Below, piece by piece: positions 5,647-59,703 of a stretch of DNA of 64,000 nt; within the stretch, counting starts at the first letter, position 1, and every line of letters begins with the position of its first letter. The stretch lies in the NCBI GenBank assembly GCA_000004985.1, contig GG738900.1. One strand, 5' to 3'. Origin of the DNA: Naegleria gruberi (Eukaryota). A program made the position numbers and the translations under genes. The notes below the pieces were generated by a model. It did not search any database. It was not told the DNA's origin and saw nothing but the letters and a program-made list of their open reading frames with translations.

Positions 5647-7209
5647 TTACTGTATTCCAGCAAGTTGTTTCAATGTAGCATCATTGATTCCCTCCTTTCG
5701 AATATCTTCTCTGCATTTCATATCGGTGGCTGATAAGTTCCATAAGGATTTGGCTGCGAATGAGCTCACTTGCTTATCCTTTCCATTGGCAAATCGAATT
5801 AGTTGTGGAACAATTGCATGAGAGAGGAGAATCTTTTGATTTTCTGCATTCTTGGTCATGTTAAATAAGGCAGCATTATACGATTCCAAATTTGGTTGTG
5901 GAATTGGACATGGAGATTTGGAAAACCATTCAGCAATGAGTTTTACAAAACCACTCTCTCTAAATGCCTCAATATTTTCTCTCATATTGGTCAATTTGAC
6001 CAACAAACTTGTGGCCATATTGAAACAAGATGGTTTTTGAGAGGCAATGCTAATTTCATCTCTCAAAAAATTGGTCAAAATAATTAAACCTCCCTTAGAT
6101 TGTGAAAATTCGAGGCACATTTCTGGACTAGCATAGCATAGGGAAACTACTGAGGAGAGGACATGTTCGAGAGCTGTCTTGTTTTTTGAAGAGAACTTTT
6201 TGAAGGCCGACACCAAATTGGACATGATGAATGTGTGTTCGTGGAGTTGAGCGGAAATTTCTGGATTTTGGACAATGTTTCCAACTGCTCCTGCAGCACT
6301 TTGAGCAATTGAATCAACTGCATGAGTGAGGAAATTGCTTACCACTTTCAATGCCCTAACAAGTTGAATTTCAGAACATTGTCCCTTCTTTTCACATACA
6401 AATGAGAGTGACATTAGACAGTTAGCAAGTCATTCATTATTTTCACTGTTTGGATTCTCTAAAACGGAAACCATCTTTTCCACAAATCCTTCCTTTACCA
6501 ATAATTTCTGAATGGAACCACTCTCATCATCACTGACAATTAAATTGTAAACACAAAAGACAGTTTTCGATCTGATTTGTTCCAATTGTGTTAAATCTAT
6601 TTGTTTCACTAAAATCCTGAGAAGTGATTGATCATTGGCTGAGTTTTGTAATTTCTGAGCCATGTATTTTCCAGTGGTTGCACTTGTAGAGCTAGTTGTG
6701 GTGGAATTTGAACTTGCTTTTACAATTTTTGTAATAAATGTTGGTTCCAAACTCAGGAATGAAATCAGTGATAACACATTTCGTTTCATTTCTTCTGTAA
6801 ATTTGGCATCTTTCAATATTTCTGAAAAAACTTTGATTGAATTTTCCTGATTGACCATTTCTTTTCGTATTGAGGCATCATTATCCTCACATAAATTAAC
6901 CAATGCACCAATTCCATACTCTATAATCGCCAACTCACTTGAATGATTCTCCAAAACCTTGAAAATCATTGAAATTCCACTCTTAATTTCATTTCTACAT
7001 TTATCCAACGTTGCCAAATTCAGTAAAATTCCCAAAACATTCTTTACAATTCTCTTATCATTCTGTTGATCATTTAATAATGAAATTATTATCGGAATCC
7101 CTCCCAATCTATGAATTTCAAACAAATTGGCATCTTCACTTGTCATGTTAAAAACATCTCCAATGGCGGACAATTTAACTAACGAATTTCCTGTTTTGAT
7201 CTTGTTCAA
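5647..7209 (-). CDS. Armadillo (ARM)-repeat protein. The two ORFs 6430..7209 and 5647..6414 are in the same frame and are separated only by an in-frame TGA at 6430-6432. A probable 5' micro-exon (MSNMSR) lies at about 7290-7307.
   Basis: ARM/HEAT-like repeats on both sides (GGIPIIISLLND..., LVNLCEDNDASIRKEMV, QLIRFANGKDKQVSSFAAKSLWNLS). No canonical intron removes the TGA. Confidence 0.6.
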
Positions 7210-11019: not shown

Positions 11020-12522
11020 TTATTTTTCATACAGTGGAATGTTTTGGTGTTTGCTGAAATGGCCTGTTGGCTTGAATATCTTAGTTTCATGTGTTTTGCC
11101 TTCCAATTTCAATTTAGATGCTTTGGCTCTTTGAATTTCCTCAATTTCGTGTTTACAATCAAAGGCCTTATCCTTATTGTCATGTAAGATATTGTAAGTA
11201 ACCTCGTGCCAAACTCTTCTTGATTCGTATTCTTTTTGTTCATGGAGTGGCTTTACTACAAGCTCATTAGAGAATGGCAATGATTTGCAAAATGCTGCCT
11301 CAAAGAATGGCAAGTCTGATTTGAAAATCAATGGCAATAAAGTGGAAGGATACAGGTCAGAGCTGTTACCTTTGGTAATATTAATCTTTCCACAAATATT
11401 TCCTTTGAGATTGAGCAATGTTTTGCCCTTTCTATCAGTCAAGCTTCCCGACACATCATTTCCACTTCCAAAATTCAATTTGACAGTAAGGCCTGACTTT
11501 TTACACTTCACCTTGAGATACTCTCCATTTGTAATGGTAGAAGAACCCCAGAACAGACCATTGGCATACACATGAGGCAATGTAAAGTCGTATTCTTCAG
11601 TTTCTCCATTTTTCAAATCGACTTGAAGTAAATGCTTTCCAGCAATATTCAAATCAACATAATTCATCTTGAGTTTGGCCAGAATTTGGAAAGTTGATTT
11701 CATGGACCAACCACACTTTTCATTTTCCATCAAGAAGGCACTAATTGGAGGATGGTGCGAAACTTGTTCTGCTGTAACCTTGGTCTTGCATTCTTTGAGC
11801 ATTTCTTGCATTCTTTCTTGGTCTTGTGAAGTTTGATTGGAGAGCCAATTTTCCAACCACATGGCTGTTTTCTTTTCTCCTGATTTTTCCTCTTGTTGTT
11901 GTTCATTGACTGAAGAATGCCACTCTGCATGAAACTCCTCTCCAAGAATTGGATTGTATGGTTTTAAACCTTCAAAGCTATCTCCAAAAGTATTTGAACA
12001 CGAAATGAGTGAAAAGAGTAAGCAACATAACATTCTATCTAGCTCACTATCCATTTCCCTCAACACCTTCAAAGCCAGTGTTGGTTCTGTATAGTAGGTA
12101 TACAATTCAAGTGTTGAAATTGGTCTCATAATGAAAATAGGTGAACACATTCTCAAAAGGTCAACCTGAGGTTGTAACTGTTTGATAAATTGCCACAGAA
12201 TTGACGAAGACGACGAATCATTACTCTTCATCTTGTGAATCATTCCCCGATGAGAAAAGTCAGGGTGATGATAAATGTCATCTTGTCGTCCCTCAAAGGA
12301 ACCATCATCATCAGACGATGATACCATCGAAGATCTATCATCACCATTCGATTCTACCAATGATGAACAGGCACTTGTTCCATTATTGGTGTGTATACTA
12401 TTAGTATTGTTGTTATTGTTGATTATCTTTTGGAGTTCCTCTTCATTAACACTACTACTATTGTTGTTGTTATTAATACTCTTATCGTCTTCCAACATTG
12501 TATTTGAAGCCATCATCATCAC
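11020..12522 (-). CDS. Oxysterol-binding protein (OSBP/ORP) family member, single exon.
   Basis: OSBP fingerprint EQVSHHPPISAF. ATG MMMMASNT at 12520-12522. Asn-rich N-terminus. Confidence 0.85.
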   Translation of the reverse strand: MMMMASNTMLEDDKSINNNNNSSSVNEEELQKIINNNNNTNSIHTNNGTSACSSLVESNGDDRSSMVSSSDDDGSFEGRQDDIYHHPDFSHRGMIHKMKSNDSSSSSILWQFIKQLQPQVDLLRMCSPIFIMRPISTLELYTYYTEPTLALKVLREMDSELDRMLCCLLFSLISCSNTFGDSFEGLKPYNPILGEEFHAEWHSSVNEQQQEEKSGEKKTAMWLENWLSNQTSQDQERMQEMLKECKTKVTAEQVSHHPPISAFLMENEKCGWSMKSTFQILAKLKMNYVDLNIAGKHLLQVDLKNGETEEYDFTLPHVYANGLFWGSSTITNGEYLKVKCKKSGLTVKLNFGSGNDVSGSLTDRKGKTLLNLKGNICGKINITKGNSSDLYPSTLLPLIFKSDLPFFEAAFCKSLPFSNELVVKPLHEQKEYESRRVWHEVTYNILHDNKDKAFDCKHEIEEIQRAKASKLKLEGKTHETKIFKPTGHFSKHQNIPLYEK

Positions 12523-12944
12523 GAAGAAGTTAAATTATTATTATTTGGGTAATATAAATTCTTCAAGTTGGAATACTGTCTGTTTTTTTCTGATTATGTA
12601 ATCACCAAGGATTTCCAACCTCAACTACTTGAGAACCACAACAAGATACCATCACAAGAATCACCTCATGACTTGAGATTTTAATGTGGACATTCGCAGT
12701 TGTCTCTCCTTGTTTTCATGTTCAAGTTGTGTAATGGATTTTTTTTAAGCTTTAAAATTTACTGGTTTTTGGGCGCCAATCGCAACAAGCGCATGAATTT
12801 ATAGTTGAGCTAAGTTGAATTTCTTTGAGATCAATTGAAAATTTGAATACAACAAAACCAAAGTGAAAGGCTTGATCTATTTGAAAAACCAAATTAAGCT
12901 TTTTTTGTTTTTCAATGAATTTCAAATTTTAAATTGCAAAATTC

Positions 12945-13025
12945 TCTATCAATTACCACAAGAAATTCTTCAGTAATTACAAACAAAAAAATGCTCAATC
13001 AATTACCACAAGAAATTCTTCTCAA
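12945..13025 (+). repeat. Direct repeat of about 22 bp (CAATTACCACAAGAAATTCTTC) at the 5' end of the F-box gene. The upstream copy is out of frame.
   Basis: Copies at about 12947-12968 and 13002-13023, identical over about 22 nt. The second copy encodes QLPQEIL of the F-box. Confidence 0.6.
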
Positions 13026-14054
13026 GATTTTGGAGTACGAATATGAGCAAGTTCCTTCCCGAATATTTTTGAAAACATCAAATCACAAAATAATCAAATT
13101 CCGATGGATAGGAGGAAATTATTTAATAATGTTAATTTATTTAATAATTTGGAATTTACTTGTAAATATATTAGGAATGTTGTAAATATTGATCAAGAAT
13201 TTTGGAAGGAATTAGTCATGCATTTGATTGTAAATTATTTTGTGTTTGGATCAGAGTTGGATTTGATTAGGATGGAAATTCAAAAATTGATTCCGAACAA
13301 ATCAATTTCTTTCAAGAGACTATTTGCTATATTGAACATGTATAGGAAACAGATGAGAACCAAGTTTTTAAAAAGGAGCAAACAAAGTAAGAATCGAGAT
13401 GTGGTCAAAACTAGGAAAATTCTATTGCTTGGTATTGGTGGTGTTGGAAAATCGACAATTTGTTTTACCTATTCACAGAGAACAACAGATCAAACACTAT
13501 TTGATCCTACAATAGAAGATGCATTTAGGAGAACTATTTCATTGAATGGAAAGCAAGTAACTATGGAGTTAATTGATGCCATGTTTGGATGTGATGATTT
13601 TTCATTTTCAACACTGATTAAAAAACAGGCAATAATAGATGCTGATGGAATAATGCTTGTCTGCTCTGTGAATGATAGGAACAGTTTTGAATATTGTGAA
13701 ACGGAATTGGATTTTATTCTTTCAGCAAAGAATTTTCTTAATATACCAATCGCGTTTGTGATAAACAAGATTGACTTGGTGAATAATAACTCAAACAGAC
13801 GAGAGGTGGCATTTAATGAATCTAAAGCCCTTTTAGAATCTAAAGGTTTTGTAAATTATTCCATCTTTGAATCAAGTGCTTTGAAATTTGTAAATATTGA
13901 TGAAGCTTTTGAGGATTTGGCAAGAAAATGTGATAGAATTACTGAAGTCGATACACTTGCTCTGGTTAGGAAGATCATCAAGAAAGATTCCAAGGTACTG
14001 ATTGAAGATTTTGAAGGTTCTGAAAGCTCTCAAAACTCTTGCAACCTAATGTAA
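12991..14054 (+). CDS. F-box domain fused to a Ras-family small GTPase domain with a degenerate G3 motif. One short 5' intron or frameshift lies at about 13037-13115.
   Basis: F-box is split between two frames: MLNQLPQEILLKILE in one and LFNNVNLFNNLEFTCKYIRNVVNIDQEFWKEL in the other. GTPase motifs present: G1 LLLGIGGVGKST, G4 INKID, G5 ESSALK. The position of DTAGQE is occupied by IDAMFGCDDF, so the catalytic Gln is absent. Confidence 0.6.
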
Positions 14055-14116: not shown

Positions 14117-15313
14117 TTAGAATAAGAATGAAATTAAAACAAGCAAGCAAACAATTAGGAAAGAAGCTTGCTTAATATTGGAGGAACCACTTGTTTTAAC
14201 AGCTCTTCCACTGCATTGAGTTGCTTTTTGATTGACAACAGTCAATTCATTTCCATTTCTTGTCAAGATGAAAGGATTGTTAAAGATTATTGCACTCAAA
14301 GTGGTGTCAGAATTAATGTTTGAAACTTGAGCAGACATGCTTGTTGAAGAGCCACATTGACCATTCACTGGACCAGTCAAAAAGACAGTATTAGTGTTGG
14401 ACTTGGTGACAGAAACACTTCCTGTCAAACAACAACATGAATTGACATCGCATGTGTCTTGAACTTTCCATGTGCCAACCCAAGCAGATGTATAATCCAC
14501 TGGGTTAGATCCAGTTTGAACATCAACACCACGACTTTGTGAATAGGTATTTCCACCAGTAGTGTAGGTTGCTTTCAATTTAGCTGAAACTGAGGATGAA
14601 ACTGTGATAGAATTTGAGAATGTAGCAACACCATTAGAAGTTGTTGCAGTTGTTGAACCTCCCAGTGTACCACTTCCTTCCCAACTCAAAGAAATACTTT
14701 CTCCAGAAGTAGAAACTGTGTTTCCACTGGTGTCAAGTAATCTGACTGTTGTGGTGAAGGTTTGACCGCTGTTAACAGTTGTTGGAGCAGAAAGATCCAA
14801 ACCAACAACAGTACCTGTAGGAGTAGTACAACCATAAGAAACACTATACTTCAATGGACAACTCATGATTGCGTTGGTGCACTCAACAAAAAATTTGGCA
14901 TTTTGTTGATCTAATCTGTATGTACCAGCATAAACGCAAGTAACAGAGCTTGCTGAAGAAGGACCATTGTAGTAACTGAAAGGAAGACCTTGTTTATATT
15001 TTTCAAAATCAGCTTCAGAAACAGTGTAGTATTTGAAGGAGCTTCCATCAGTTGACTGAACATTAACGCTATAGGAAGATACAACTTGGCCGGTAGGACA
15101 GGTTAGAGAGAAACTAGTATAGGCATGGGCAGCAACACTTTGAGGACAAGTGCCACCCCCACATGTACATGCAATACATGAGCAGCTTTGTCTTGGGCTT
15201 CTGAACAAGTTTTGTTCCACAGCCTTGAGAGAAAGTTGAGAAGAAACTTGTTGAGCACAAGCCATTAATACAAAAAGCATAATAGCAGCTAGAATAGATT
15301 TGGTGTGAAACAT
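14117..15313 (-). CDS. Secreted, predicted GPI-anchored Ser/Thr/Gly-rich surface protein, paralogue A.
   Basis: Signal peptide MFHTKSILAAIMLFVLMACAQQ. Hydrophobic C-terminal tail ASFLIVCLLVLISFLF. Cys-rich C-terminal domain DYTSAWVGTWKVQDTCDVNSCCCLTGS... that is nearly identical to gene B. Repeats of TSG/GGS type. Confidence 0.7.
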   Translation of the reverse strand: MFHTKSILAAIMLFVLMACAQQVSSQLSLKAVEQNLFRSPRQSCSCIACTCGGGTCPQSVAAHAYTSFSLTCPTGQVVSSYSVNVQSTDGSSFKYYTVSEADFEKYKQGLPFSYYNGPSSASSVTCVYAGTYRLDQQNAKFFVECTNAIMSCPLKYSVSYGCTTPTGTVVGLDLSAPTTVNSGQTFTTTVRLLDTSGNTVSTSGESISLSWEGSGTLGGSTTATTSNGVATFSNSITVSSSVSAKLKATYTTGGNTYSQSRGVDVQTGSNPVDYTSAWVGTWKVQDTCDVNSCCCLTGSVSVTKSNTNTVFLTGPVNGQCGSSTSMSAQVSNINSDTTLSAIIFNNPFILTRNGNELTVVNQKATQCSGRAVKTSGSSNIKQASFLIVCLLVLISFLF

Positions 15314-15382
15314 TTTTTTGTCAATGAGAGTCACTGTTCAGTTTTACTAGCTGTCACTTAATACCTTTTGGGAATTCATAAC

Positions 15383-17386: not shown

Positions 17387-20300
17387 ATGACACAATCACC
17401 TTCATCAAATCAGGGTGGTAATGACAAGAGCAAAAACTTTCCCAGCCGTATCAAAAGCTTTTTCATCAAGTCATCTTCTCCAACTAGTCCCAACAATTCC
17501 TTACAACCGAGAATTTCATCACCCAACTCTCCAAATCTTCCCAAAACTGCAAGTTCCAACACTCTTCCTATTCATATTCATAATAATAACAATAATATCG
17601 AGAACTCTCCATCATTCACCAGAAAGAGTAGTGCTAGCAATGAAATATCATCAGTATTATCTTCCTCTCCACTTGTTAATTCCCCATCATTAAATTCATC
17701 GTCGAATATCAATAATATTCGGCATAGTAACAATCAATTTTTGATGGTTTCTCCATCATTGAATAATAATAATAATATTTCTCCACCTAATAATAATAAT
17801 AATTCTAATAATTATTATTCAACAACAACGGGAACAACAACTTCAAACACTACATCATCTAACGAGGCAATTTCCCCAAATACCAATAATGGTGGTAGTG
17901 CTGCTGCTACTAGTGGAGGAGGACAACAACAAAACGACAACAACAACAACAATATTCAGCAGCATCAACTCGAGCCAATTGTTTTTGATTCGCCAAACTC
18001 ACCTCCAAATCACAGTAAAAACAACGGGTCGTTTTTGGCGGGAGAATTTGATAAGAAAAAAAATCATCATGAGCCTACAGTTTCATCCTCATCCAATTAT
18101 ACGACCACTTCGACATCAAATTCTATCGGAAGTGGTGGAGGTGGTAGTAGAAGAATGGATAGTACAGTATCGGATATTGTTGTTGGAGGACATATTTTGT
18201 CAAGTTCAGTGATGAATAGTGATTTGATGCAATATGATTTGAATTTTAATGAGGGAGGATCAAGAAAAACATTTGATTTTCATAACATGACAGCAAATTC
18301 GACACTGGGTAGCCTTCCTCCTGGAGGATTTTTACATGGTGCTTCGAATAGTCAAACTAATTTTGGAAGTGTAAGAGATTCTAATGCAATACTTTCGGAG
18401 AGTATGTTGGATAGACATCTATTGGATGTCCATCATCAAGATGGTATGTTCATCAATTATCTTACTTGATAATAATTGATTAACTCATTTATATTCTAAT
18501 AGATTCTATTTCTCAATCATCAATGGACTCAGCGAGGTCAACTCCTCATGTTAATATTGCCCGTTTGGGTCATCATCAAAAAGATACACATTCACAATTT
18601 AATGACATCACAGTTTCGGATGAAGGAACAACAGCTGAGGATACCTTGTCTGTTAATGGAGTTCCAATGAATGTAGATGAAATATTTCATGTTTATTCTG
18701 TAGAAAATAATCCAACCATATCCATGACAGGTTATGCTGACACTTACATGTCATCTTTTTCTAACATTAAAAATTCAACGAGTGAAGATAAGAATTTATT
18801 TGGATTACAATGTTTACCAAATATTTTCCAACCACTTTACTACAAAGATAATGATAATTCAGCCTATGGATTTTCAGAAATCAAGAAAGTTCCTCTATTG
18901 TCTCAACTGTCAGAACAGGAAGTTTCAGACTTGCCTGTACATGCACGCAAGACAATCAAAAACAAATATGAATCACCATTCCTTGTACTTTTATCAAATT
19001 CTAAGAAACAACATCATCTCTCTAGGAGCACTCTCAAAAAATTCTCTGTCAGTCAAACTAAAAAGCAATTAATTGAGGATACTAAATGGAGAATGTTTGA
19101 AGATGCCATGCTTTCAAAGGAAGTTAGATTTCACAATGATCCTAACACTTCATCCAGTAATCCAGTTTCGGATTACATTTTACCATCTGGAAAGAACGAC
19201 AAAACCAGAAACAGGTCAGACTCTGGAGGCTTACTGACATTGAAAACACTTTCGGATTTTGGTGGGAAACCTTCAACCAGTCCATCAACCAGTCCGACCG
19301 TTGGAAGTCCTCTAACACTCGAATCCATGTTTAAAAGAAAACAATCAGATTATGCAAGCTCACCAAATACTGATGATACATCTAGCCTTTCTTCAATGAA
19401 AGGGTACGATTCCAGTTCTGAGGAGGAAGAAAGCTTTCAAATTGCCAATTTTTCTCCTAGAATAATTCAAGAAATACCACATGGTTTCTTGGCTACTAGA
19501 TTGGACCTACTTAAAGATTATATGAAAGAATCATGTGAGGAAAACACTAATGTTTCACTGAAGAAGAATGTTGCTGAATACAAAGTTTGGAAGAAGGAAC
19601 ATTCTCTCCTCGAATTTTTATCTGACGATTTGATGAATACACACGAACTGAAAACAAAACTGTTTCCATTCATGTATGCACCAAACGAAAATCTGAAGGA
19701 TGGATCATCTGACATTTTACTTCAAAACTTTTATGTCAACAAGCAAGACGTTGATAATAGAGCCAAACTAATTATTGATATAGAAAAATTCAAGCTGGAT
19801 TTTGTTGAAGAGCACTTGAATGGAGTACCATTGGAGAATTTTTATGCCAGTTTAACCTTGTACTCTGTCAAGCTAACAGAATCTCAAAATCCATCCATCT
19901 CTGCAGTTAAAAGATATAGCGAAACATTTTCCTTCAATCTTTCGTCTTCATCCAATAATAGTAAGAGAGCTCTCTTCTACTTGTCAAGCCAAAATTTGCC
20001 TAACAGCACAGCACCAAACACTGAAAAGGTGTTTGTCTTGGTGAGAATATTTAGAAACTTTAAGGGAACTTATGCGGAACACTTTAACGAGCTCTATATC
20101 AAAGGAAAAAATACGCCAAAGAGTTCCTCTGATAAACCATTCAATGTCAATGACTCTAAAGATTACAAGGCAATCAAGGCTGTTAAACCAGCATTCTTTG
20201 AGTCTCTTAAGGATGTTTACTCTGCTTTTGCATGGTCTATTGTAGAACTCAATCCAATGCTCAACAGTCTTCCTGCTCTCCAATTCCCTAGTTTGTACAT

Positions 20301-23300
20301 GAATGGTGAAGGACTTTCAAACGATTTTTATGTGAAGAATATTTATTGTATACCAGACAAACTGGTTGGAAACGTTTCAGATGACAAGCTTTTCGAAGTT
20401 TATTTTGCCAATGGATTGAATCTCATCCCTAACGTTGCCGAAGTATCTGCAGGAGAAAGTGGAATTTCTGGAGGTCTTTCAACAAGCGAAAAAACCCTTG
20501 TTGTCAACAGTGGTAAGGATATCATCAAACAGCTGTCGAAGACAATGCTTAGAAGTATTCCTAGCAAGCTTACCTTCAAACTAATGCTGTTGCCTCCATC
20601 AAAATCTAATCAAACTCTTAGAGCTTCCCTATTTGAAAATGAAAAGCAATATCAATATGTACAGAGAAAATACTTACCGGAAAATAATATGTTAGTCATT
20701 CAAAAGGAATCTGTCACCGATCAAGTTGAAAAGAAAAAGAAGAATAGAGATGATAGCAAGGAGACCTTGCAGGCTGATTTACCTGTTACTGAAATGGAAC
20801 AGTTCTATTCTTCCAATACCATGCCAGAATCTACTACAAGACAAACAAATTTGAGAAATGAGCTTTACATTTATCCACAAAGTGCCAACTTTTCCAAATT
20901 TGCAGTCAAAAATAAGAATATTCAAATAACAGTGTCTTACAATGATACAGACCAAAACTTCTCACTCAATAATATGGAACAAAGAAACAAAGGACTTTTC
21001 TACAAACCTTTCACTAGTAATAATTCAAGTGACCGTATTAATGAGGGTGAATGTGTTAGTGTAGCTTTGAAGAACGAGAAACCAGAATTTAGTGATGAAA
21101 TCAAATGTATTATTCCGTGCCGTTATCCAACTGAGGATGAAGATTGTAGACAACACTTAGTTTTCAAGTTTTACAATGTTTCACACAAAGAGACAATTCA
21201 AAAGAAAGCTAGTGATGTAGAACTTTCTCAATCTAGAACTCTTATTGGTGTATCATTTTTGAAAGTATACAAGAAGGTAACAACAACAATTGATAAGAGA
21301 AAAATCATCCTCAAAGATCTAATTAATGGAGATTTTGAGTTGCCAGTTTATCCAGTTCTTAACATTCCAAACGCAAACTATTTGAGATTATGCGACCAAA
21401 TTATGGATCCTTCTCTAGTACATATCAAACCATCGGCTACTTTTAAAGTTAAAATTATTCCATATAGCTTTATTTTACCAAATATTGCTCTCACTTTCCC
21501 ATACTCAACCTCCAACATTATCAATTTGTTCCTTCTCAAGTTTTTCAGATTGGTTAACAATACAGTTTCTGTCACTCCAACATTTGAAGAAATTGCAGAT
21601 GTTTACAAGACTTTGATTCAAACTTACGAGTATGAAAAACAAGTTGTATCCAACACCATTTGGTTTGAAATGCATGCTTTATATTTACCAATGATATTGA
21701 ACACTTGTTTTGACTGGATTATTGACACCTTTGGTAAAGACAAGAATTACACAACAGAATTATGGAAAATTATCCTCTTCTTCATTGAAAAGTATAACCA
21801 ACATTCGGCATCTTCTTCAACTGTTCTCAAAATCTACCAAAAATATCATTTCAGATTCTCCAAGAGTGGGGATGATGTTATTTTCAAGTTGATCTCATCA
21901 TTTATTGACTCAATCAAAATTGAGAATTCCAAACTGAGTCCTAAAGGAAACGTATTTGAGGAACTCTTCTTGAGAAACAACCAAACAATATTTGGGTTAT
22001 TTTTGAAGAGTATTGTTTGTTCAATGAGTTATAATACTGTGGAACCATTCCAAGTCGATAATGAGTTTGATAATCTTCATATTATGACTAAGTCAAGTTT
22101 GAACGCCATAGAACAATTTACTGTAATGGTTTTGGAAATGGTGGAAAGAGTTTCATTCAAGAATGAAAAGCATACAATCCTCAAATCATTCTTGAAGAGT
22201 TTTGCTGCTTTTTATTCCCATCTAATTGCTATTTATTCGATAAAGGCAGAAAAGCGGTTTGAACTTGCAGGACTCATCTCCAAACAAGAAATTATCCAAT
22301 ACCTCCTTAAATTTATAGAGTCGATGGGTTATTTACCTTCTCTATACAAGTTGAAGAATAATGATAACGACTCTAAGAAATCCAAGGAAATCTCTACACT
22401 GGTATCAGAATCACAATTATTGATGATTAGTGAACTTTTACTTCATTTCCCTTCATTTGAACTTTCTCTACCTCCACCAATTTCTCTCCTTGATAGTATC
22501 ATTGCTCAAAGTCAAAATGCAGAAGCACCAATATCAAACTTTAGAGATATTCATCACTTTGTTTTCTCTTCATTTGCCGAATATTTCGTAAGAACAATTT
22601 ACTTGGCTGAAGAGAAAGAAGTTAGACTTAAGGCAATTTTACTATTCAAAGAATATGTAGAAAAGATCAGTAGAGAAAGTAGTACTGTTCAATTATCAGA
22701 AGAAAGTCAACCTGATGAACAAAAGGCCGAAGTTCGATCTAGAATATTCACTTCCCAATTACTTCTTGAATTCTTTGCCAAACATATGATTGAGATTTTC
22801 CCAGAGTGGAAGAGAAACGCAGAGTCTAATCAAAAGAAAATTACAACTGCTATTGAGGAGTTGAGAAGAAAAATATCACAAGTGGAAAGAGATATTCTTG
22901 CAGCCCAAGACAGTCTTAACCAGGCAAAGCAAAATAAGACAAAGAAGTCAACGGAACCAGAAAAGAAGTTGAACCACTTGGATGTTCAATTAACAACTTT
23001 GAAACAGTTATTGCTTACAAAAGAAAAGCAATTATTGGAGGAATTTGAAACAACCAAAACTGAAAAACGTATGCTTCTTTCTGTGTTTGTCCAAATAACA
23101 ACAAATTGTGATGAGAACTCGCTTAGATCTCTATGGAAGATTAAACCAGCTTCAGAAGATTCTAACATGTATCACGATGACGGTCTTCATTTCAGTTCTA
23201 AACTCTTGATGATATTCCAAATGTGTGTACAGAGTTTTGAGTATGGCGGCTATTCTCCTTTATATCACTACTTTGATAGACTCTACCAAAAGCTTCCACA

Positions 23301-26300
23301 GAATCAAACTGTGAAACACTCCACACCTCTCAATGAAAAATTCTCTCCAGCTAAATCAAACCCTTCAATTTCTAGGTCAGCAAGTGACAGGAAGAAAGGT
23401 GACGATAAACCACTCACCAAAATGAGTTTAGATGGACCTATGGATGTTGATTCTCCAGTGAGATCTTCTCCTAGCCAAGGAGCAAACAGTGGAATTTCTA
23501 AATCTGATTATATTGAGAAAAAGATAACCATTGAGAGATTGATTTCCAACGAGACAAGTTCAACCATTTTTCAACTCTTCTTAAAATTCATGGAAGACAA
23601 TGCCGAGTTTATTCAAAATATTGTTCGTCCAGGAGCATACATTGATCCAAAACATTTACCACCGATTTTGGAAAATATTGTCAGAACACTTTTGAATTTA
23701 TTGAGATCAAACCTAAGCGAATGCTTGACAATATCCGTATTGTTGTATTTGAGACATGTTTTATCTCAACATCCTTTCACTGCCATATTCTATAATCCAC
23801 AATCAGAATATGGTTTGCTATTCTCTGAAGAACTACTTCGTTTGAGTCACTCCAAGCTTGGTTCGATTAGAAAACACGCTGCTGCCTGTTTCTACTTGTG
23901 GATTCGTTTTTGCTTTGAAGAAAACAAAGGTATGACTGTTCCACAAATAATGGTAACTCTCTCCCTTTCAAGAAGATTGCAAAGTTATACCAAAATTACC
24001 CACAACTTTTTATCAGACAATACTATAGGTGATGAATCGTTTGATGATTCTGAAGGTATTAATGCTCTGGCTCACATTGAAGAATGTATTAAATTGTTGC
24101 CTTACTTTGCCATCAAGGATGAGGCAGCTCCAGGTTCAAAATTCTTCAAAATTAGAAACAAGTACGGAGCTCAAAAGGGTGATGTTACGGATAGAGAAGT
24201 CCAAGCCGAAGATAATAATGGAAAACAGAAAGGAGAAAGATTCCACACTGCTATGGTGTTCTTTAAAAAGATTGAAAACAAGGCAGATCAAAAGAAATTT
24301 GGACAGAAAGTTCTCGAAGTGTTAGACCAATTCCACGATTTATTGTCTGATCTTTCTAAAAAGTTACTCAGTCTTGTTCAAGATACCATGTCAATTAGGG
24401 CCACAATGATCAAGCGAAAGCAAAGTGAAACTAGCACTGTAACTTATGATCCATTCAAAACTGAAGAATTATTGTATAGAATATCTGACAATTATTCAAA
24501 ACTTCCTGAACTCAGACTTGCATGGCTGGAACAACTTGCCTCCTATCACAAAGGATTGGCCCAATATGAGGAGTCTGCACATTGCTATTTGAGAATTCTC
24601 TCTCTAGTATTCGATTATTTGGATCATCAAGCTACAAAGAAATTCACTCCCAACAGTATCAAAACGGAAACGTCTGTATTGGAAATTCTTCCACTCTCTC
24701 AATTCTACAGCATTTCTCCAATGTTGATAGAATTCAAGGTGAATCAAACAGGCATTCAAACTCAATCACTTTTAGGAGGAGGAAATTCCAAGTATGATTA
24801 CATGTCCGATCAGTCCATTGTGAATTACATACTCAAAACTATTGACTCTTTAGAGTTGGCTGAATGTTTCGAACACTGTATCATGTTATACAAGCTACTG
24901 ATTCCTATTTTCGAATCTAAATATGCTAACTTTACACAATTGCATATTATTTACGACAGATTGACACAACTCTATAAGAAATGCTCCTCCTTCCAATCAA
25001 CATCTAATAGCAAAGTTCCAACCTCTCCTAGTGATAATGAAACTACTAATGCCCTATCCCTCTCCAATATCTCTTCACTCTCAGCTTCAAAGACAACAGA
25101 AAACGAAACCGACAGTAGAGTATATAGCTTTTATTATCGTGTCAAATTTGTTGGAAGAGCATTTGGTGAATTGGATGGCAAAGTTTACATTTACAAAATG
25201 CCAAAACTATTCAAACTTTTTAAGATGAAGAACAAAATGTTGGAAATTTATGGAAAGGATGTAGAAGTTGTTTCTAAAGATGAAGCTGGAGTAGTTACCG
25301 CTGATGATGAGCTTTCAACTGGTTCTGAATCAAATAAGAAGGTCATTCAAATTAACCATGTCAAGCCATTCCTTCCAACTGTAGATCAAATGAAAATTTT
25401 AAGAAAGAAATTTGATGATCTCAATAGATTGAGTAATATTAGTACAAGTGTTAATAGTGCTCCTAGTACGAGAGGATCCGATAGAAATTACAAGACTATT
25501 CTCAAAAAGAGTCCAATGACCTCCAGTACTAGCAAATTACCAACAATGAGCAGTGATAGTCTCAGTCCTAGAAATCGTTCTAATTCAAACTCTCAACCTC
25601 CTCTTCCAACTCTCAGATCAAATATCAAATTCAAGAGTGACGAGAATTTGTCAGTTTACAATATGGAAGGAGTTGCTTCACCACTATCACCAAGAGATGG
25701 CATCCTATCGCCAAGTTCTCCTTCTAAAGTTTCCATTCCAAAACTTAATCTATCCAAGAATAAGAAGGAAAATTCAGGTAACCAAAGTGAATCCAACCAA
25801 AATGCCTTCCAAGATATGGAACGATTTTTATATGATAAGATTTTATCACTCAACTACTTTATTACCAGAGACTCTGAATTCCAAAGAAATATGAACCTCA
25901 ACCATTTCTTTTATGAATATTCTGTTGCTGCCAAAGGAGCAGACATTACTCAAACTTACAAGAAGAAGATTTTAATCACCACTGAAGAGTACTTCCCTAA
26001 TGTCATGACTCGTTTGGAAGTAGCTGAGGAAAAGGAATTTACACTCTCTCCAATTGAAAATTCAATTGAAATGATTGATACACAAGTTAAAAAATTAGAG
26101 ACTGCCATGAATTCAGTATTATCAACAGCTCTGGGTGACGTGGCGAATTATAGCGTTCTTGGAAATATGTTCAATCACTCTGTCCACACATCTAGTCACA
26201 GCAATAATACTGGAACACCTGGCTACAACAAACGTCACTCCATCAAAGGTGGTTCCAATTTGGTGATCAATTTGAACATGACCAATTCTCTAGGTACTGT

Positions 26301-27084
26301 TCCATACTTTAACGATCTGAACATTAATCCTCACACTGTCTCCACTCTACAAATGATCTTGCAAGGAAGCGTTCAAGCAAGGGTTGGTGAAGGACCTAAA
26401 AAAGTTGTGGAAATCTTTTTAAATAGAGAATTCAGAGAAAGATGGAAAGTTCAACAAGGAAACTCTGACCTTATCACCAAGCTTAATGAGAGATGTTTCA
26501 GATTTTTGTTATTGTGTGATAGAGGAGTCAAGTTGCATTCTCTCATAATCCACTCTCAAACACCAACAGCTACCAACAATAAGGATAGAATTTTACATGC
26601 AGAATTGGAGAAGGGTTTCCATGAAGTCAAGTCATTATTCGAAGCCTACCTAGAAATTCCAACTGTGAGAACCTTTGTACCAGTTGTTAATGGATCTATT
26701 GTACCAGAGAGAGTAACCAACATGAAGAAGGGACAAGAAACTGTAGAAACATTTATTACTGTCACTGTTCAAGATGTTTTGAATTATCCAGATTTATTCT
26801 ACAAGCACAATAATATTTCTTACAATACTCTGCAAAATCTTAAACTTGGCAAACAACAATTAACCGACCCATTCAAACAAATTTCAACACCATCAGAATC
26901 GCCAAGAAATGCAGACCTCCTCAATGCAATCAGAAACAACAATAGACTTTCAATTCCATCAACTAAAATGAAGGAATATTTGGAACAATTAAGTATTCCC
27001 TCAGGAAGATCTCTCAACTTGGATTCTGATAACCATCTAGTTCACGACTTACTCCTTCGTCAGTCCTCAGCTGATCTTCAATAA
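17387..27084 (+). CDS. DOCK-family (dedicator of cytokinesis) Rac/Cdc42 GEF of about 3200 aa. Structure is join(17387..18443,18503..27084).
   Basis: Exon 1 is a low-complexity Asn/Ser-rich N-terminus. GTATGT donor at 18444, TAATAG acceptor at 18502, phase 1. DHR-2 signature SKLPELRLAWLEQLASYHKGLAQYEESAHCYLRILSLVFDYL at about nt 24470-24620. Size and architecture match DOCK/Zizimin proteins. Confidence 0.8.
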
Positions 27085-27326: not shown

Positions 27327-29181
27327 ATGCACCGTACACAGATCGAGCAACAATACGGCATTAGCTTTCATGTTCCTGAGCGGTATCAGGATTTGAATGT
27401 TATTGGTAAAGGTAAGAAGAAGAAGATTGGTAGATTGTATTTATGCTAATAATATCCGATCATATGATGATTTTTAAAATTTTGTATTTTTGAATAATCA
27501 ACTGATTTTATGTAATCTATTGTACATTGTTGAAACTATTTGATAATGGATATATTTCTTCATCATGATTAATCAAATTAACATTTCATTAATAACAACA
27601 ACAACAAAATCTATTACGATCATCATCAAATTTTATATTCTCTCCACTTCTTGTATTACTAATACAATAATAATTTTAGGATCATATGGTATTGTTTGTG
27701 CTGCAAAGGATACATTAACCAATTCCAAAGTAGCCATCAAGAAAGTCATCCGATGTTTTGATCATCATGTTTTTGCTGTTAGATTATTAAGAGAAGTTAA
27801 AATTCTTGGCTTTTTAAATCATCCAAACGTTATTGATTTAAAGCATGTACAATTACCATTCCCCGATAGAGATAATTTTACAGAATTATACATGTATACA
27901 GATTTGATGGATACGGACTTGAAAACTATTATACAATCATCTCAAGAATTGACTAATGACCATATCCAATTCTTCATGTATCAAATACTTAAAGCTGTAC
28001 ATTATATACATAGTGGAAATGTTATTCACAGAGATTTGGTAAGTGTTTTTCTTATTATTTGAATATTAAATGTTTATGAATAATAATATATCTTTAATAA
28101 CATCATCATAACAATATCATTTGATTAATAACAACAACAACAACAACAGAAACCTAGTAATATACTTATTAATAGTGATTGTAATATTAAAATTTGTGAT
28201 TTAGGATTGGCTAGAGGATACAATGATGGAACAAATGCTAACGAGTCAGTACTTAAAGGATTATTAAAAGGACAAAAACAAATGAAGCCAAAACTTACTG
28301 AATACGTAGTGACACGTTGGTATAGAGCTCCAGAGTTACTTCTTCAATCGAATGCCTATGGTAAACAAGTGGACGTGTGGAGTGTTGGATGTATATTTGC
28401 AGAATTGTTAGGAAGAGAACCACTGTTTAGAGGAAGTTCACATTATGATCAACTTGTTAAAATTTTTGATGTTATTGGAACTCCAAAGGATAAGACAGAC
28501 TTTGAAGGAATTGAATTGACAGATTCTAGTTACAATATCCTTCAACAGATTAAAGTGAAACCTAAACGAGATTTTACCAGCATTTTCCCTAATGCTACAA
28601 ATGATGCTGTTGATTTACTAGAAAAATTACTTTGTTTTTCACCAAAGCAAAGAATTAGTGCTTCTGAAGCTCTAGAACATCCATATTTTGAAGATATCCA
28701 TACATTTAATGATTATGATTTTGCTTCATCATCATTTGACTATAGTTTTGAAGCTGATGCAACTAGTATTCCAGCAATAAGGCACATGCTCTATGACGAA
28801 ATTGCTAGAAAGTATGACCACTCAAATGATAGAGAAGATGTCATGACTAGATATGAATTACAGACCTCTATGAAACCTCCAGTTTCAACTGCTGTACAGC
28901 AAAATAATGTACAACAAACCACAAACAATTATCAACCTCAATCTCAACATTACAATCATCAACAACAACAATATGATGAGGATGACGAGAGTGATGAAGG
29001 GGACGATGAGGAAGTAGAAGATATGGACTTTGTGGGCGATAAAAAGTCAGAACAACAACATCAACAACAATACCACCATCAAATGCATCACAGAAATCTC
29101 AGTAATGCCGGTGATGATAGCATCCTCACCACCGATGAAGCATCAGATTATATGGAAGAATCAGATTCTGATTTTCTTTAA
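27327..29181 (+). CDS. ERK-type MAP kinase with TEY activation loop. Structure is join(27327..27411,27680..28038,28150..29181). Closest resemblance is to Dictyostelium ErkA.
   Basis: PERYQDLNVIGKG/SYGIVCAAKD (glycine loop across intron 1), VAIKK, HRDL/KPSNILI (across intron 2), DLGLARG, LTEYVVTRWYRAPE, Gln/acidic C-terminal tail. Donors GTAAGA and GTAAGT. The track start 27234 is TTG; the true ATG is at 27327. Confidence 0.85.
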
Positions 29182-57915: not shown

Positions 57916-59703
57916 TGTGGAACACGATATTATCATTTATTATGAGATTGGTAATTTTCCTATAGTATCTTCCTTAATTATCTTAATTGACCAAATTAGG
58001 TCAAGGAGAGATTTCAAAACATAAAATAAATTATATTTTCGAGATGTAGTAATGATTTCCAATCGATTGATATGTATTTTATAGATTGAGGATGTGGTTC
58101 TCTATATTCAAGATTTCCTCCTGATCTTCCCAACTCAACCTTGATATTTCACCCTTTACCTCCCGAATGGCGGTTTTTCCACCCCTCAGTTTTAGCCTTC
58201 AGTCAGAATAAAAAACACNNNNNNNNNNNNNNNNNNNNNNNNNNNNNNNNNNNNNNNNNNNNNNNNNNCATCTACTACTAACAACAACTAGTGAATGACC
58301 ACTTGACGAGTTGAATGAACAATGTCAACCACTAATCCATCTACTACTACTAACAACAACTATTGAACAAGTTTCTAATCAACATGATTGTAATGTGAGA
58401 GGTTGGAATGTACTACTTACATTGACAATAATTCAATATAGTTATAGTATTCTACAATAGAGTTTGTCTATTTACAATAGAACTATTACAAAGCTTATGA
58501 AATCCTTACTTGTAATTCAATCTGCTAAGGTTCGATTGGGTTGATAAATGATACTAGTTACTCGGATTGAAAGTATTATTACAAACAATCATAATAGAGA
58601 TGAATCTCACTCATTCAATATTGAGTTAGAGTTTCCAATTGTTCCTACAATAGAGAGATTTTATACCAATAGAGAGAGGATTAAACATCATGATCAATAT
58701 TATAACATACCCAACATACACAGGCTTTAATCTCTTCAATGAATCCAACTAGGGTTTTTATAGGATTATTCATCAATACTACTACTACTACTACCTACTT
58801 ACCTTAAACAATAACCCACAATAATAATGGACAAGTGAAAGTGTAACATTAGCAAACTAATGAAATTGTAACAATATAACCTACATTGTGGATGAATCAT
58901 GTTAGTGTATATATTCATATTGTTTAAATTGATGGACTCAAGATATTAATCATGTTAGTAATACGATTCCTACTAATACTTACTATTGTAGAGTAGTTAC
59001 ATGAAGTAACCTATGATCATCTAACCTATTGATAATGATGGAAATACAGAGAGATACCAATCAATCATAAAGAGTTGAAATAATTACTTACTGAAGAGTT
59101 GTTCCTTTGATTATTCGAGTACAACAATGACTTCCGAAGGAGGAATGTGAAAGCCTTTGATGGTTGAACTTAGTGTAGTGGAGAAATAGGATGATTATTA
59201 ATTACTAACACAGCACTTACCTGAGATGAATCGATTCGTGAGAAGATCTATTCAGTTGTGATTTTACTTTGAATTGGCTGATCGTCATTAGGCTTGATAC
59301 AGTCCTTGAATATTTAAAAGCGAGTTGATGAATGAGTACAAAGAAGTATTACTACAACACTTACCAAAACTAATTCCTAAATGATTAATGGATTGGTAAG
59401 GAGGAAGAGCTTTTCTTAAATTATAAAATCATTGCAACAACTTACTTGATTTCTTTCACATGATAAATCCTCTTCCTACCTCTTCCCACTCACAATCAGG
59501 CTAGTTATCATTAATATCCAAATAAACTACTACTTACTAGAAGAGTTTCAAATAAAGCTTTAATAGGGTTTAAATTGAAATTAACAATCAATAAACTTAT
59601 TAAGCAACCACTTGTTGTATGATGAATTATTTCTTGATGAAAACTGTAAAGATGGGTAGATAATGGTAGAGGTATTTTTTATTAATATACAAGAGGAATT
59701 ATC

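What the first reader, a model, noticed from the sequence alone, without database searches (positions are those of the whole stretch)
12945..14054. F-box fused to a Ras-like GTPase with a degenerate switch II, plus a fossil duplicate of the F-box start
The N-terminus encodes an F-box (LPQEILLKIL...TCKYIRNVVNIDQEFWKEL). It is followed by a Ras-family G domain with intact G1, G4 and G5, but the DTAGQE G3/switch-II motif is replaced by IDAMFGCDDF, so there is no catalytic Gln and the protein may be GTPase-deficient. F-box plus small-GTPase fusions are unusual and imply SCF recruitment by a nucleotide-dependent switch. The F-box is split across two reading frames by either a ~78-nt non-canonical (GTACGA) intron or a frameshift. 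A 22-bp direct repeat of the sequence encoding QLPQEIL sits out of frame just upstream.
Basis: partly seen in the sequence, partly recalled or inferred. Interest (0 to 1): 0.6.

Follow-up and report, generated by a model that had tools for sequence, protein, structure and literature searches.

The report
Naegleria F-box–Ras GTPase gene
This is a real Naegleria gruberi gene for a lipid-anchored Ras-type switch protein with an F-box at its front; such F-box–GTPase fusions are already documented in this amoeba, so the only new points are a missed first exon and the F-box call on a Ras-class member.

Summary
The sequence observations hold. ATG 12991 opens a 44-nt exon encoding MLNQLPQEILLKIL. A 77-nt (or 80-nt) GT..AG segment joins it in frame to the 316-codon ORF 13104-14054. 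G1, Thr35, G4 and G5 are intact; G3 is DAMFGC, so there is no Gln61. The 22-nt repeat is exact and sits within a 47-nt, 83% repeat.

The window is Naegleria gruberi, not a dictyostelid. The exon-2 ORF is printed verbatim in Herman et al. 2021 (PMC8296547, Table S8) as a newly modelled 'Ras' on ACER01000547.1, without exon 1 and without an F-box label. That paper already reports the F-box as the commonest extra domain on Naegleria Rab, Rho, Ran and Galpha GTPases, but not Ras.

The gene belongs to a Naegleria/Willaertia family with the layout F-box, linker, Ras, C-terminal helix, CaaX. Only 1 of 23 members keeps Gln61. Its N-terminal module matches the recognised Naegleria F-boxes (hhalign 96%).

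Unresolved: intron or frameshift. The donor is off-consensus, no relative has an intron there, and no transcript data could be found. SCF recruitment is inferred. This is a new member of a known kind, of modest interest.

The parts
12925..12971 (+). Upstream copy of the direct repeat (dead copy of the gene start). It holds ATT instead of ATG, reads ...YQLPQEILQ* in its own frame, and has no ATG in that frame.
   Evidence: the repeat finder family D1, 47 nt, 83% identity, spacing 50 nt. Exact 22-mer at 12950. ORF list 12863-12976.
12975..13021 (+). Downstream copy of the direct repeat. It contains the start codon and the codons for MLNQLPQEIL.
12991..13034 (+). Proposed exon 1 (44 nt): MLNQLPQEILLKIL plus two bases of Glu15. 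This is F-box helix 1. The ATG lies behind an A-run (acaaaaaaATG), as at 5 of 14 other first-ATG ORF starts in the window.
   Evidence: The Pfam F-box-like hit is lost without it.
13035..13111 (+). Proposed intron, 77 nt, GTACGA...GGATAG (alternative acceptor AG at 13113-13114 gives 80 nt). Alternatively, a frameshifted remnant of the variable insert that relatives carry at this point in the F-box.
   Evidence: Only donor 13035 restores an open frame. The alternative acceptor scores higher for F-box-like, 31.1 vs 27.3 bits. The donor differs at +4 and +6 from the GTAAGT/GTATGT/GTTTGT donors seen in the window and in relatives. No relative has an intron here.
13112..14054 (+). Exon 2 through the TAA stop (14052-14054). 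From the internal ATG at 13104 it equals the 316-aa model published in Table S8 of PMC8296547.
12994..13220 (+). F-box-like domain (residues 2-51 of the spliced protein, spanning the intron): LPQEILLKILE, FTCKYIRNVV, EFWKEL.
   Evidence: Pfam PF12937 at 24.3-31.1 bits, profile positions 1-46 of 47. Family N-terminus vs recognised Naegleria F-boxes: hhalign 96%, E 4.6e-9. Coordinates.
13221..13415 (+). Helical linker specific to the family, including the conserved FKRLFAILNMYRKQ helix (13311-13352) and a basic stretch before strand beta1.
   Evidence: Family alignment. Helices at residues 33-45, 49-62 and 70-93 in the AlphaFold model of the 316-aa exon-2 ORF, at modest confidence.
13416..13931 (+). 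Ras-family G domain (residues 117-288). G1 13431-13454; switch I DPTIED 13503-13520; degenerate G3 DAMFGC 13575-13592; G4 NKID 13764-13775; G5 ESSAL 13869-13883.
   Evidence: Pfam Ras 86.1 bits. PDB sequence search. Foldseek TM 0.87 to Rap1B. pLDDT 84-95. Coordinates.
13956..14015 (+). Conserved C-terminal helix of the family (LALVRKIIKKDSKVLIEDFE).
   Evidence: Aligned with LLxxIIxxDxxV(F/L) in Naegleria and Willaertia relatives. Modelled as a helix but at low confidence.
14040..14051 (+). CaaX prenylation box CNLM. X = Met predicts farnesylation.
   Evidence: Read from the sequence. The Cys is at least 90% conserved in the family and most members end CxxM. The farnesyl rule is established knowledge.

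Best explanation
The locus is a two-exon Naegleria gruberi gene. Exon 1 is 12991-13034, the intron is 13035-13111 or 13035-13114, and exon 2 runs to 14054. It encodes a 327/328-aa protein with five parts: an N-terminal F-box-like domain, a helical linker, a Ras-family G domain, a conserved C-terminal helix and a CaaX box.

It belongs to a multi-copy family found so far only in the heteroloboseans Naegleria and Willaertia, plus unnamed environmental contigs.

Shown here: the domain architecture, the family membership, the intact nucleotide-binding motifs (P-loop, Thr35, NKxD, SAx), and the loss of the catalytic Gln with a remodelled switch II.

Inferred mechanism:
- The protein is farnesylated and membrane-bound.
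- It binds guanine nucleotide but hydrolyses GTP slowly, or only with a non-standard GAP.
- Through its F-box it docks Skp1-Cul1, so the G domain acts as the substrate-binding or gating module of a membrane-localised SCF ubiquitin ligase. Alternatively, it targets itself and bound partners for turnover.

The upstream 47-nt repeat is a dead tandem copy of the gene start and has no coding role.
For: Gene model:
- Frame restoration works only from donor 13035.
- The F-box-like hit spans the junction end to end, at 27.3 or 31.1 bits, and vanishes without exon 1.
- The exon-1 ATG has the A-run context seen at other gene starts in the window; the ATG at 13104 does not.

Identity:
- The ORF is verbatim in Table S8 of PMC8296547 as N. 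gruberi 'Ras', ACER01000547.1, not flagged as a pseudogene.

Family:
- Full-length relatives of 315-366 aa occur in N. lovaniensis, N. gruberi and Willaertia magna.
- They share the same architecture in the alignment.

F-box:
- Pfam score at or above the cutoff.
- hhalign 96%, E 4.6e-9, against F-boxes of Naegleria Rab/Rac proteins labelled F-box by Herman et al..
- Four of the 12 weak PDB profile hits are F-box proteins aligned at their helix 1.

G domain:
- Pfam Ras 86 bits; M-Ras, R-Ras and Rap2 at E about 1e-17; Foldseek TM 0.87.
- Family-wide, K16 is kept in 22/23 members and the K and D of NKxD in 23/23, but Q61 in only 1/23.

Concept: the GTPase-dependent ubiquitination idea for Naegleria F-box-GTPases is already put forward in PMC8296547, supplementary file 4.
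Against: - No transcript evidence exists. None of the three candidate products is in the 15-billion-protein collection.
- The donor GTACGA departs at +4 and +6 from the four Naegleria/Willaertia donors examined.
- No relative examined has an intron at this site.
- The closest relative has a coding insert of about 23 aa there, so the unspliced length (about 68 aa from LP to FW) matches its 65 aa.
- Only 6 of 23 family members reach E <= 0.01 for F-box-like on their own.
- AlphaFold confidence for the N-terminus is low.
- Skp1 binding, GTP binding and prenylation are all untested.
- The polybasic stretch that precedes the CaaX box in most relatives is missing here.
Confidence: 0.5

Rival explanations
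1. There is no intron. The 77 nt are the remnant of the coding insert that relatives carry between F-box helices 1 and 2, now broken by a frameshift. The cause is either a real mutation (a decaying paralogue or pseudogene in a birth-and-death family) or an assembly error in a homopolymer run such as TTTTT at 13066-13070.
For: - The unspliced LP-to-FW distance (about 68 codons) matches the 65 aa of the closest relative P0002, which has a coding insert at exactly this place and no intron.
- None of at least 6 relatives has an intron here.
- The donor GTACGA is off-consensus.
- The second frame is already open from 13047, so a single indel would join the two frames.
- The closest relative is itself frame-disrupted at the P-loop.
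- Herman et al. report many disrupted paralogues among the F-box-bearing Rab-like clades.
- A frameshift-repaired read-through still scores 24.8 bits for F-box-like.
Against: - A 316-codon ORF remains intact downstream in a 31% GC genome.
- Splicing gives a better and contiguous F-box match (27.3 or 31.1 bits) with canonical spacing, whereas the repaired read-through splits it into two pieces.
- A GT..AG pair in exactly the right phase exists.
- The curators did not flag the gene as a pseudogene.
- Translation of the 77 nt shows no convincing similarity to the N. lovaniensis insert, and the DNA alignment is uninformative.
Confidence: 0.25
2. The published model is right. Translation starts at ATG 13104, giving a 316-aa CaaX Ras-like GTPase with a truncated, non-functional F-box. 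The exon-1 sequence and its upstream duplicate are both relics of a former start.
For: - This is the model curated by specialists.
- The start region has clearly been through duplication and decay.
- It needs no unusual splice site.
Against: - The 13104 model gives no F-box hit, yet the residues after it align with F-box helices 2 and 3 of relatives. A start there cuts a domain in half.
- An ATG-initiated ORF encoding exactly the missing helix 1 lies 70 nt upstream, with a typical A-run start context, while ATG 13104 lacks that context.
- Most listed relatives (20 of 22 in the family alignment) begin with the LPxEI helix.
Confidence: 0.1
3. The gene model is right, but the N-terminal module is only F-box-derived and no longer recruits Skp1/SCF. 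Together with the linker and the C-terminal helix, it forms a family-specific helical domain that regulates or localises an otherwise ordinary, if slow, membrane Ras.
For: - Most family members fall below Pfam thresholds (6 of 23 at E <= 0.01).
- Inserts of 10-40 aa interrupt the F-box in many members.
- The PDB profile search has no significant hit; the best E-value is 0.18.
- AlphaFold models the region with low confidence.
Against: - The Leu-Pro of helix 1 and the terminal Trp are at least 90% conserved.
- Profile-profile homology to accepted Naegleria F-boxes is strong.
- The window protein itself has canonical spacing and passes the Pfam cutoff.
Confidence: 0.15

Closest known systems
Naegleria F-box-GTPase fusions (Rab-like, Rho/Rac, Ran, Galpha) described by Herman et al. 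2021, BMC Biol 19:142 (PMC8296547, Additional files 4 and 10)
   Same: - Same organism and the same architecture: an F-box N-terminal to a Ras-superfamily G domain, in some subgroups with a C-terminal CaaX.
- The same lineage-specific expansion with disrupted paralogues.
- The same proposed role in GTPase-dependent ubiquitination.
- The N-terminal modules are homologous (hhalign 96%).
   Different: - The G domain here is Ras family proper: YDPTIED-type switch I, closest to M-Ras, R-Ras and Rap. That is a class for which the paper lists no F-box.
- No 'Ras' row in Table S8 carries the F-box label, and this gene's published model lacks exon 1.
RhoBTB proteins (atypical Rho GTPase domain fused to BTB domains; Cul3 substrate adaptors). 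From established knowledge, not tested here.
   Same: A small-GTPase domain with impaired hydrolysis, fused in one polypeptide to a cullin-RING-ligase adaptor domain. This is the best-studied precedent for a GTPase acting as part of an E3 substrate receptor.
   Different: - The adaptor is BTB (Cul3), not F-box (Skp1-Cul1).
- The GTPase is N-terminal rather than C-terminal.
- The G domain is Rho type, not Ras type.
- There is no CaaX in most RhoBTBs.
FBXL2/FBXL20 (F-box proteins ending in a CaaX box, forming membrane-anchored SCF ligases). From established knowledge.
   Same: An F-box protein carrying a C-terminal prenylation motif, which places an SCF substrate receptor on membranes.
   Different: The substrate-binding module is leucine-rich repeats, not a G domain. 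The lipid is geranylgeranyl (CVIL) rather than the predicted farnesyl (CNLM).
Ras-superfamily members lacking the catalytic Gln (Rap with Thr61, NKIRAS/kappaB-Ras, Rnd, RhoH). From established knowledge.
   Same: P-loop, Thr35 and NKxD are kept, but residue 61 is not Gln. This implies low intrinsic GTPase activity, constitutive GTP loading, or dependence on a GAP that supplies the catalytic residue.
   Different: Those proteins keep a canonical DxxG spacing. Here one residue is inserted between Asp57 and Gly60 and three more in switch II. None of them carries an F-box.

Membership tests
F-box / F-box-like domain (Pfam PF12937, PF00646) | Profile match at or above the curated gathering score | tested here: met
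   PF12937 scores 24.3 bits on the full protein (exactly at the cutoff), 27.3 on the N-terminal 100 aa, and 31.1 with the alternative acceptor. All cover profile positions 1-46 of 47. PF00646 scores only 13.8-15.3 bits, below its 20.5 cutoff. This is a marginal pass.
F-box / F-box-like domain (Pfam PF12937, PF00646) | Leu-Pro-x-Glu-Ile/Leu helix 1, the hydrophobic pattern of helices 2 and 3, and the terminal Trp | tested here: met
   LPQEILLKIL, FTCKYIRNVV and EFW are read directly from the sequence. Pro and Trp are at least 90% conserved across the family.
F-box / F-box-like domain (Pfam PF12937, PF00646) | Homology to accepted F-boxes at the profile level | tested here: met
   hhalign of the family N-terminus (A3) against F-boxes of Naegleria Rab/Rac proteins labelled F-box in Table S8 (A7): probability 96%, E 4.6e-9, 49 columns. 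The profile against PDB sequences was not significant on its own (best E 0.18), although 4 of 12 hits are F-box proteins.
F-box / F-box-like domain (Pfam PF12937, PF00646) | Three-helix F-box fold | tested here: inconclusive
   The AlphaFold model of relative P0015 shows helices at 9-18, 23-32 and 34-56, but pLDDT is 42-60. The window model lacks helix 1 and is also low-confidence there.
F-box / F-box-like domain (Pfam PF12937, PF00646) | Binds Skp1 and assembles into an SCF complex | not testable with these tools
   Needs pull-down, two-hybrid or complex prediction. The spliced sequence could not be submitted for structure prediction.
Ras family small GTPase (Pfam PF00071) | Profile match and fold | tested here: met
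   Pfam Ras 86.1 bits against a 21.6 cutoff. M-Ras, R-Ras and Rap2 at E about 1e-17. Foldseek to Rap1B: E 1e-14, TM 0.87 normalised to the target.
Ras family small GTPase (Pfam PF00071) | G1 P-loop GxxxxGK[ST], G2 Thr35 within (Y/F)DPTIED, G4 NKxD, G5 SAx | tested here: met
   GIGGVGKS, FDPTIED, NKID and SSAL.
Ras family small GTPase (Pfam PF00071) | G3 DxxGQ with the catalytic Gln61 | tested here: not met
   DAMFGC: Asp and Gly are retained but separated by one extra residue, and Gln61 is Cys. Switch II has a 3-residue insertion. Gln61 is absent in 22 of 23 family members.
Ras family small GTPase (Pfam PF00071) | C-terminal CaaX prenylation signal | tested here: met
   CNLM at 14040-14051. 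The Cys is at least 90% conserved in the family.
Ras family small GTPase (Pfam PF00071) | Binds and hydrolyses GTP | not testable with these tools
   Requires a biochemical assay.
Naegleria F-box-GTPase fusion proteins (Herman et al. 2021) | Encoded in a Naegleria genome, with the F-box in the same polypeptide as a Ras-superfamily G domain | tested here: met
   The ORF is identical to the Table S8 entry ACER01000547.1. For domains see the rows above.
Naegleria F-box-GTPase fusion proteins (Herman et al. 2021) | Recorded by the authors as carrying an F-box | tested here: not met
   The row has no additional domain. No 'Ras' row is labelled F-box, and the text names only Rab, Rho, Ran and Galpha.
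Spliceosomal intron (13035-13111) | GT..AG ends that restore an open frame | tested here: met
Spliceosomal intron (13035-13111) | Extended donor like other Naegleria/Willaertia introns (GTAAGT, GTATGT, GTTTGT) | tested here: not met
   GTACGA differs at +4 and +6. The comparison set is only four introns, so this is weak evidence.
Spliceosomal intron (13035-13111) | Position shared with homologous genes | tested here: not met
   No intron at this site in the N. lovaniensis relative P0002, in Willaertia P0010, or in the N. gruberi-like fragments P0157-P0159.
Spliceosomal intron (13035-13111) | Spliced transcripts | not testable with these tools
   No product of this gene is in the protein collection, and no RNA data were accessible.

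The most novel reading that the evidence does not exclude
An entire heterolobosean clade of true Ras-family GTPases, and not only the Rab, Rho, Ran and Galpha lineages already noted, consists of prenylated SCF substrate receptors. In these, a hydrolysis-impaired G domain takes the place of the usual WD40 or LRR module, so nucleotide state gates ubiquitination at membranes. In this particular gene, the formerly coding variable insert of the F-box would have been converted into a young, weak-donor intron.
Probability: 0.2. Interest if true: 0.55.

Novelty: new member of a known kind. Interest (0 to 1): 0.3.

Why it matters
In practical terms, the published gene model for this N. gruberi Ras (ACER01000547.1) probably lacks its first exon. 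With that exon the protein gains an F-box. The same N-terminal module runs through a sizeable Naegleria/Willaertia Ras-class family that the curated catalogue lists without any extra domain. This extends the already reported theme of GTPase-coupled ubiquitination in Naegleria to the Ras family proper.

It also defines a compact, recognisable architecture that could be tested directly: F-box, linker, Gln61-less Ras domain, C-terminal helix, CaaX. It does not reveal a new kind of system.

Tried and rejected
- **Dictyostelid origin:** rejected. GC is 30.5% and all relatives are heterolobosean. The ORF is identical to an N. gruberi entry.
- **Word-indexed homologue search with the spliced protein:** found one fungal Ras only. 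It missed relatives that exhaustive phmmer found at E 8e-30, so its negatives were disregarded.
- **Search with the N-terminal profile:** returned five unnamed environmental fragments, all paralogues and none an orthologue.
- **Paralogues in the window:** none.
- **Synteny with the N. lovaniensis relative:** none. That locus is flanked by SCAR-like and BCS1 genes, not OSBP, so positional orthology is unsupported.
- **N. fowleri orthologue:** none is assigned in Table S8.
- **Transcript-derived evidence:** exact look-ups of the 316-, 327- and 328-aa products found nothing.
- **DNA alignment of the 77-nt segment with the N. lovaniensis insert:** uninformative.
- **Structure prediction:** Models of the exon-2 ORF and of relative P0015 gave a confident G domain but a low-confidence N-terminus, so the F-box fold was neither supported nor refuted.
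- **Upstream repeat copy as an alternative first exon (CA|GTAATT donor):** rejected, because its frame has no ATG.
- **A corrected N. lovaniensis model using the GTTTGT donor:** rejected as a simple fix, because beta1 lies in a different frame from the upstream exon.
Full report
**1. What is in the sequence**

The region lies between an oxysterol-binding-protein gene on the minus strand (11020-12522; Pfam 144 bits) and a convergent Cys-rich ORF (14117-15334, minus strand). The long ORF 13104-14054 encodes 316 aa.

Seventy nucleotides upstream of it, in another frame, ATG 12991 opens MLNQLPQEILLKILE... Enumerating every GT..AG pair that fuses this frame to the long ORF without stops leaves only donor 13035, with acceptors at 13111 (77 nt), 13114 (80 nt) or 13174 (140 nt, which deletes part of the F-box).

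The exact 22-mer CAATTACCACAAGAAATTCTTC occurs at 12950 and 13000. It is the core of a 47-nt direct repeat (12925-12971 vs 12975-13021, 83% identity, spacing 50 nt). The upstream copy has ATT in place of ATG, has no ATG in its own frame, and stops right after ...QLPQEILQ.

**2. Domains**

The spliced 328-aa product scores as follows against Pfam:
- Ras: 86.1 bits (cutoff 21.6).
- F-box-like PF12937: 24.3 bits on the full protein, which is exactly the cutoff, and 27.3 bits on the N-terminal 100 aa.

Side-by-side scoring of the alternative gene models is informative:

| Model | F-box-like score |
|---|---|
| Spliced, acceptor 13111 | 27.3 bits |
| Spliced, acceptor 13114 | 31.1 bits |
| Published model starting at Met 13104 | no hit |
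| Frameshift-repaired read-through | 24.8 bits, split into two pieces |

The G domain is closest to M-Ras, R-Ras, Rap2, Rap1, Ral and Rheb (E about 1e-17). Its AlphaFold model (pLDDT 84-95 over the core) superposes on Rap1B with TM 0.87.

The G motifs are (coordinates):
- G1 GIGGVGKS, switch I FDPTIED, G4 NKID and G5 SSAL are all present.
- G3 reads DAMFGC. Asp57 and Gly60 are kept with one residue inserted between them, Gln61 is Cys, and three more residues are inserted in switch II.

By the established rule, X = Met directs farnesylation.

**3. Whose gene it is**

The exhaustive phmmer search found full-length relatives of 315-366 aa. The exact look-ups place them in Naegleria lovaniensis, N. 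gruberi and Willaertia magna, plus unnamed environmental contigs.

The 316-aa ORF is printed verbatim in Table S8 of Herman et al. 2021 (PMC8296547). There it is annotated 'Ras', ID ACER01000547.1, marked as a newly created gene model, with no pseudogene flag and no additional domain. The window is therefore N. gruberi NEG-M, not a dictyostelid. No N. fowleri orthologue is assigned.

**4. What is already known**

The supplementary text of that paper makes three relevant points:
- The F-box is the most frequent additional domain on Naegleria GTPases, found with Rab, Rho, Ran and Galpha domains.
- One F-box-bearing Rab-like subgroup has a CaaX motif, and members of these groups show disrupted coding sequences, which the authors read as 'birth-and-death evolution'.
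- This 'points to GTPase-dependent ubiquitination'.

Ras is not named among the F-box partners. None of the N. gruberi 'Ras' rows carries an F-box label; the only labels are ANK and BTB. Yet many of the corrected Ras sequences printed there start with LPxEIL.

**5. The family**

I aligned the window protein with 15 database relatives and 7 curated N. gruberi models. The alignment shows a common plan:
- an LPxEI(L/F)xxIL helix;
- a variable insert of 0-40 aa;
- a (C/S/T)K helix;
- NxFW;
- a linker helix (FKRxYxxxNxY);
- the G domain;
- a C-terminal helix (LLxxIIxxDxxV);
- usually a Lys-Lys stretch followed by CxxM.

Across the 23 members, the key positions are conserved as follows:

| Position | Members keeping it |
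|---|---|
| K16 | 22 |
| K and D of NKxD | 23 |
| Thr35 | 16 |
| Asp57 | 18 |
| Gly60 | 13 |
| Gln61 | 1 (Pro is the commonest replacement) |

So nucleotide binding is under constraint but canonical catalysis is not. The 'degenerate switch II' is a family trait.

Only 6 of 23 members reach E <= 0.01 for F-box-like individually, which explains why the curators did not label them. A profile of the N-terminal module finds nothing significant in PDB sequences (best E 0.18), though 4 of the 12 listed hits are F-box proteins aligned at their helix 1. The decisive test was profile against profile. This module, compared with the F-box segments of Naegleria Rab/Rac proteins that Herman et al. did label, gives 96% probability and E 4.6e-9 over 49 columns, from the LP motif to the terminal Trp.

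Structure prediction did not help for this region. The N-terminus of relative P0015 is helical (9-18, 23-32, 34-56) but has pLDDT 42-60.

**6. Intron or frameshift?**

This is the main open point.

For an intron:
- A GT..AG pair sits in exactly the required phase.
- Splicing yields canonical F-box spacing and the best Pfam scores.
- Exon 1 begins at an ATG behind an A-run (acaaaaaaATG), a context shared by 5 of 14 other first-ATG ORF starts in the window, including the P450 whose full product is independently on record. ATG 13104 lacks this context.
- The 316-codon downstream ORF is intact.

Against an intron:
- The donor GTACGA differs at +4 and +6 from the donors I could establish. These are GTAAGT in the window's kinase gene (intron 28039-28149, splitting HRDL|KPSN) and GTATGT and GTTTGT in Willaertia P0010.
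- None of the relatives whose DNA or uninterrupted ORF I could inspect has an intron at this site.
- The closest relative (N. lovaniensis P0002, 39% identity) has a coding insert of about 23 aa at exactly this position. The unspliced N. gruberi distance from LP to FW (about 68 codons) therefore matches its 65.
- The second frame is already open from 13047, so a single indel would also join the frames.
- That relative is itself frame-disrupted. Its beta1/P-loop segment KTVILGSG|GVGKS is in a different frame from the upstream exon, and the annotation bridges this with an implausible GTCCCA intron that deletes beta1.

No transcript-derived product of the window gene is in the protein collection. 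The DNA alignment of the two regions is uninformative.

My estimates are: real intron about 0.65 (0.5 with a working F-box plus 0.15 with an F-box that no longer binds Skp1), frameshift (mutation or assembly error) about 0.25, and internal start with exon 1 as a relic about 0.1.

**7. How it most likely works**

Shown: the architecture, the family, intact nucleotide-binding motifs, loss of Gln61 with a remodelled switch II, and the CaaX box.

Inferred from established knowledge of the component families:
- Farnesylation anchors the protein to a membrane. The polybasic patch that most relatives have is missing here, so anchoring may be weaker.
- The G domain binds GTP but has low intrinsic and conventional-GAP-stimulated hydrolysis, as in Rap (Thr61), NKIRAS, Rnd or RhoH.
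- The F-box docks Skp1-Cul1-Rbx1, making the G domain the substrate-binding or gating module of a membrane SCF ligase, or a handle for its own turnover.

RhoBTB (an atypical Rho domain plus a Cul3-binding BTB) and FBXL2 (a CaaX-anchored F-box protein) are the closest mechanistic precedents. Neither resemblance was tested here. An orthogonal rival is that the module is F-box-derived but no longer binds Skp1.

**8. Verdict**

F-box-GTPase fusions are a published hallmark of Naegleria, and this very gene is in the published catalogue.

What is new is modest:
- a probable missed first exon that restores the F-box;
- evidence that the F-box module extends to a Ras-class, CaaX-bearing, Gln61-less family shared by Naegleria and Willaertia.

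I file it as a new member of a known kind, interest 0.3.

Noticed in passing
L002:6001-7120 (N. lovaniensis PYSW02000017.1, protein XP_044549988.1 = P0002): The annotated intron 6402-6522 (donor GTCCCA) removes strand beta1 and the first half of the P-loop. The expected ...KTVILGSG|GVGKS is encoded, but in a different frame from the upstream exon. The gene therefore carries a frameshift or an assembly error, and the deposited model is wrong.
   Followed up: partly
P0156, P0159, P0160 (ENA/Logan fragments); L002:6522/6523: Several family members stop, or read into non-coding sequence, right after GGVG(K). The N. lovaniensis acceptor lies immediately before GVGKS. This suggests a recurrent intron inside the P-loop codons in this family. 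The window gene has none there.
   Followed up: partly
window 27565-29181 (+), intron 28039-28149: A protein-kinase gene is split by a 111-nt GTAAGT...ACAG intron inside the catalytic-loop motif HRDL|KPSN. I used it as the in-window control for Naegleria splice sites.
   Followed up: yes
window 44536-46047 (-); L001: The exact product of a cytochrome P450 ORF (503 aa) is also encoded on a 2,995-nt contig of an ENA metagenome assembly (ERZ929261, run ERR1078381). N. gruberi-like DNA is therefore present in that sample.
   Followed up: no
window 11020-12522 (-): An oxysterol-binding-protein gene (Pfam 144 bits) with an Asn/Ser-rich N-terminus is transcribed divergently from the F-box-Ras gene, across a 468-nt intergenic region.
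   Followed up: partly
window 14117-15334 (-): A convergent ORF of about 400 aa with a signal-peptide-like start and many Cys, Thr and Ser residues has no Pfam match, and its exact product is not in the collection. Its stop lies only 62 nt from the stop of the F-box-Ras gene.
   Followed up: partly
window 29799-31433 (-) and 18523-27084 (+): A histidine-kinase ORF (HisKA + HATPase_c) and an uninterrupted 2,853-aa ORF. The product of the large ORF is not on record in the collection, and it was not characterised.
   Followed up: no
window 54106-57004, 58219-58268, 59704-63095: Runs of N (scaffold gaps) take up about 6.3 kb of the last 10 kb of the window. The six-frame 'ORFs' listed across them are artefacts.
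   Followed up: yes
tool behaviour: The word-indexed homologue search returned one fungal Ras for the full protein, and it did not return even the members of the query alignment. Exhaustive phmmer found relatives at E 8e-30. Negative results from the indexed search should not be read as absence.
   Followed up: yes
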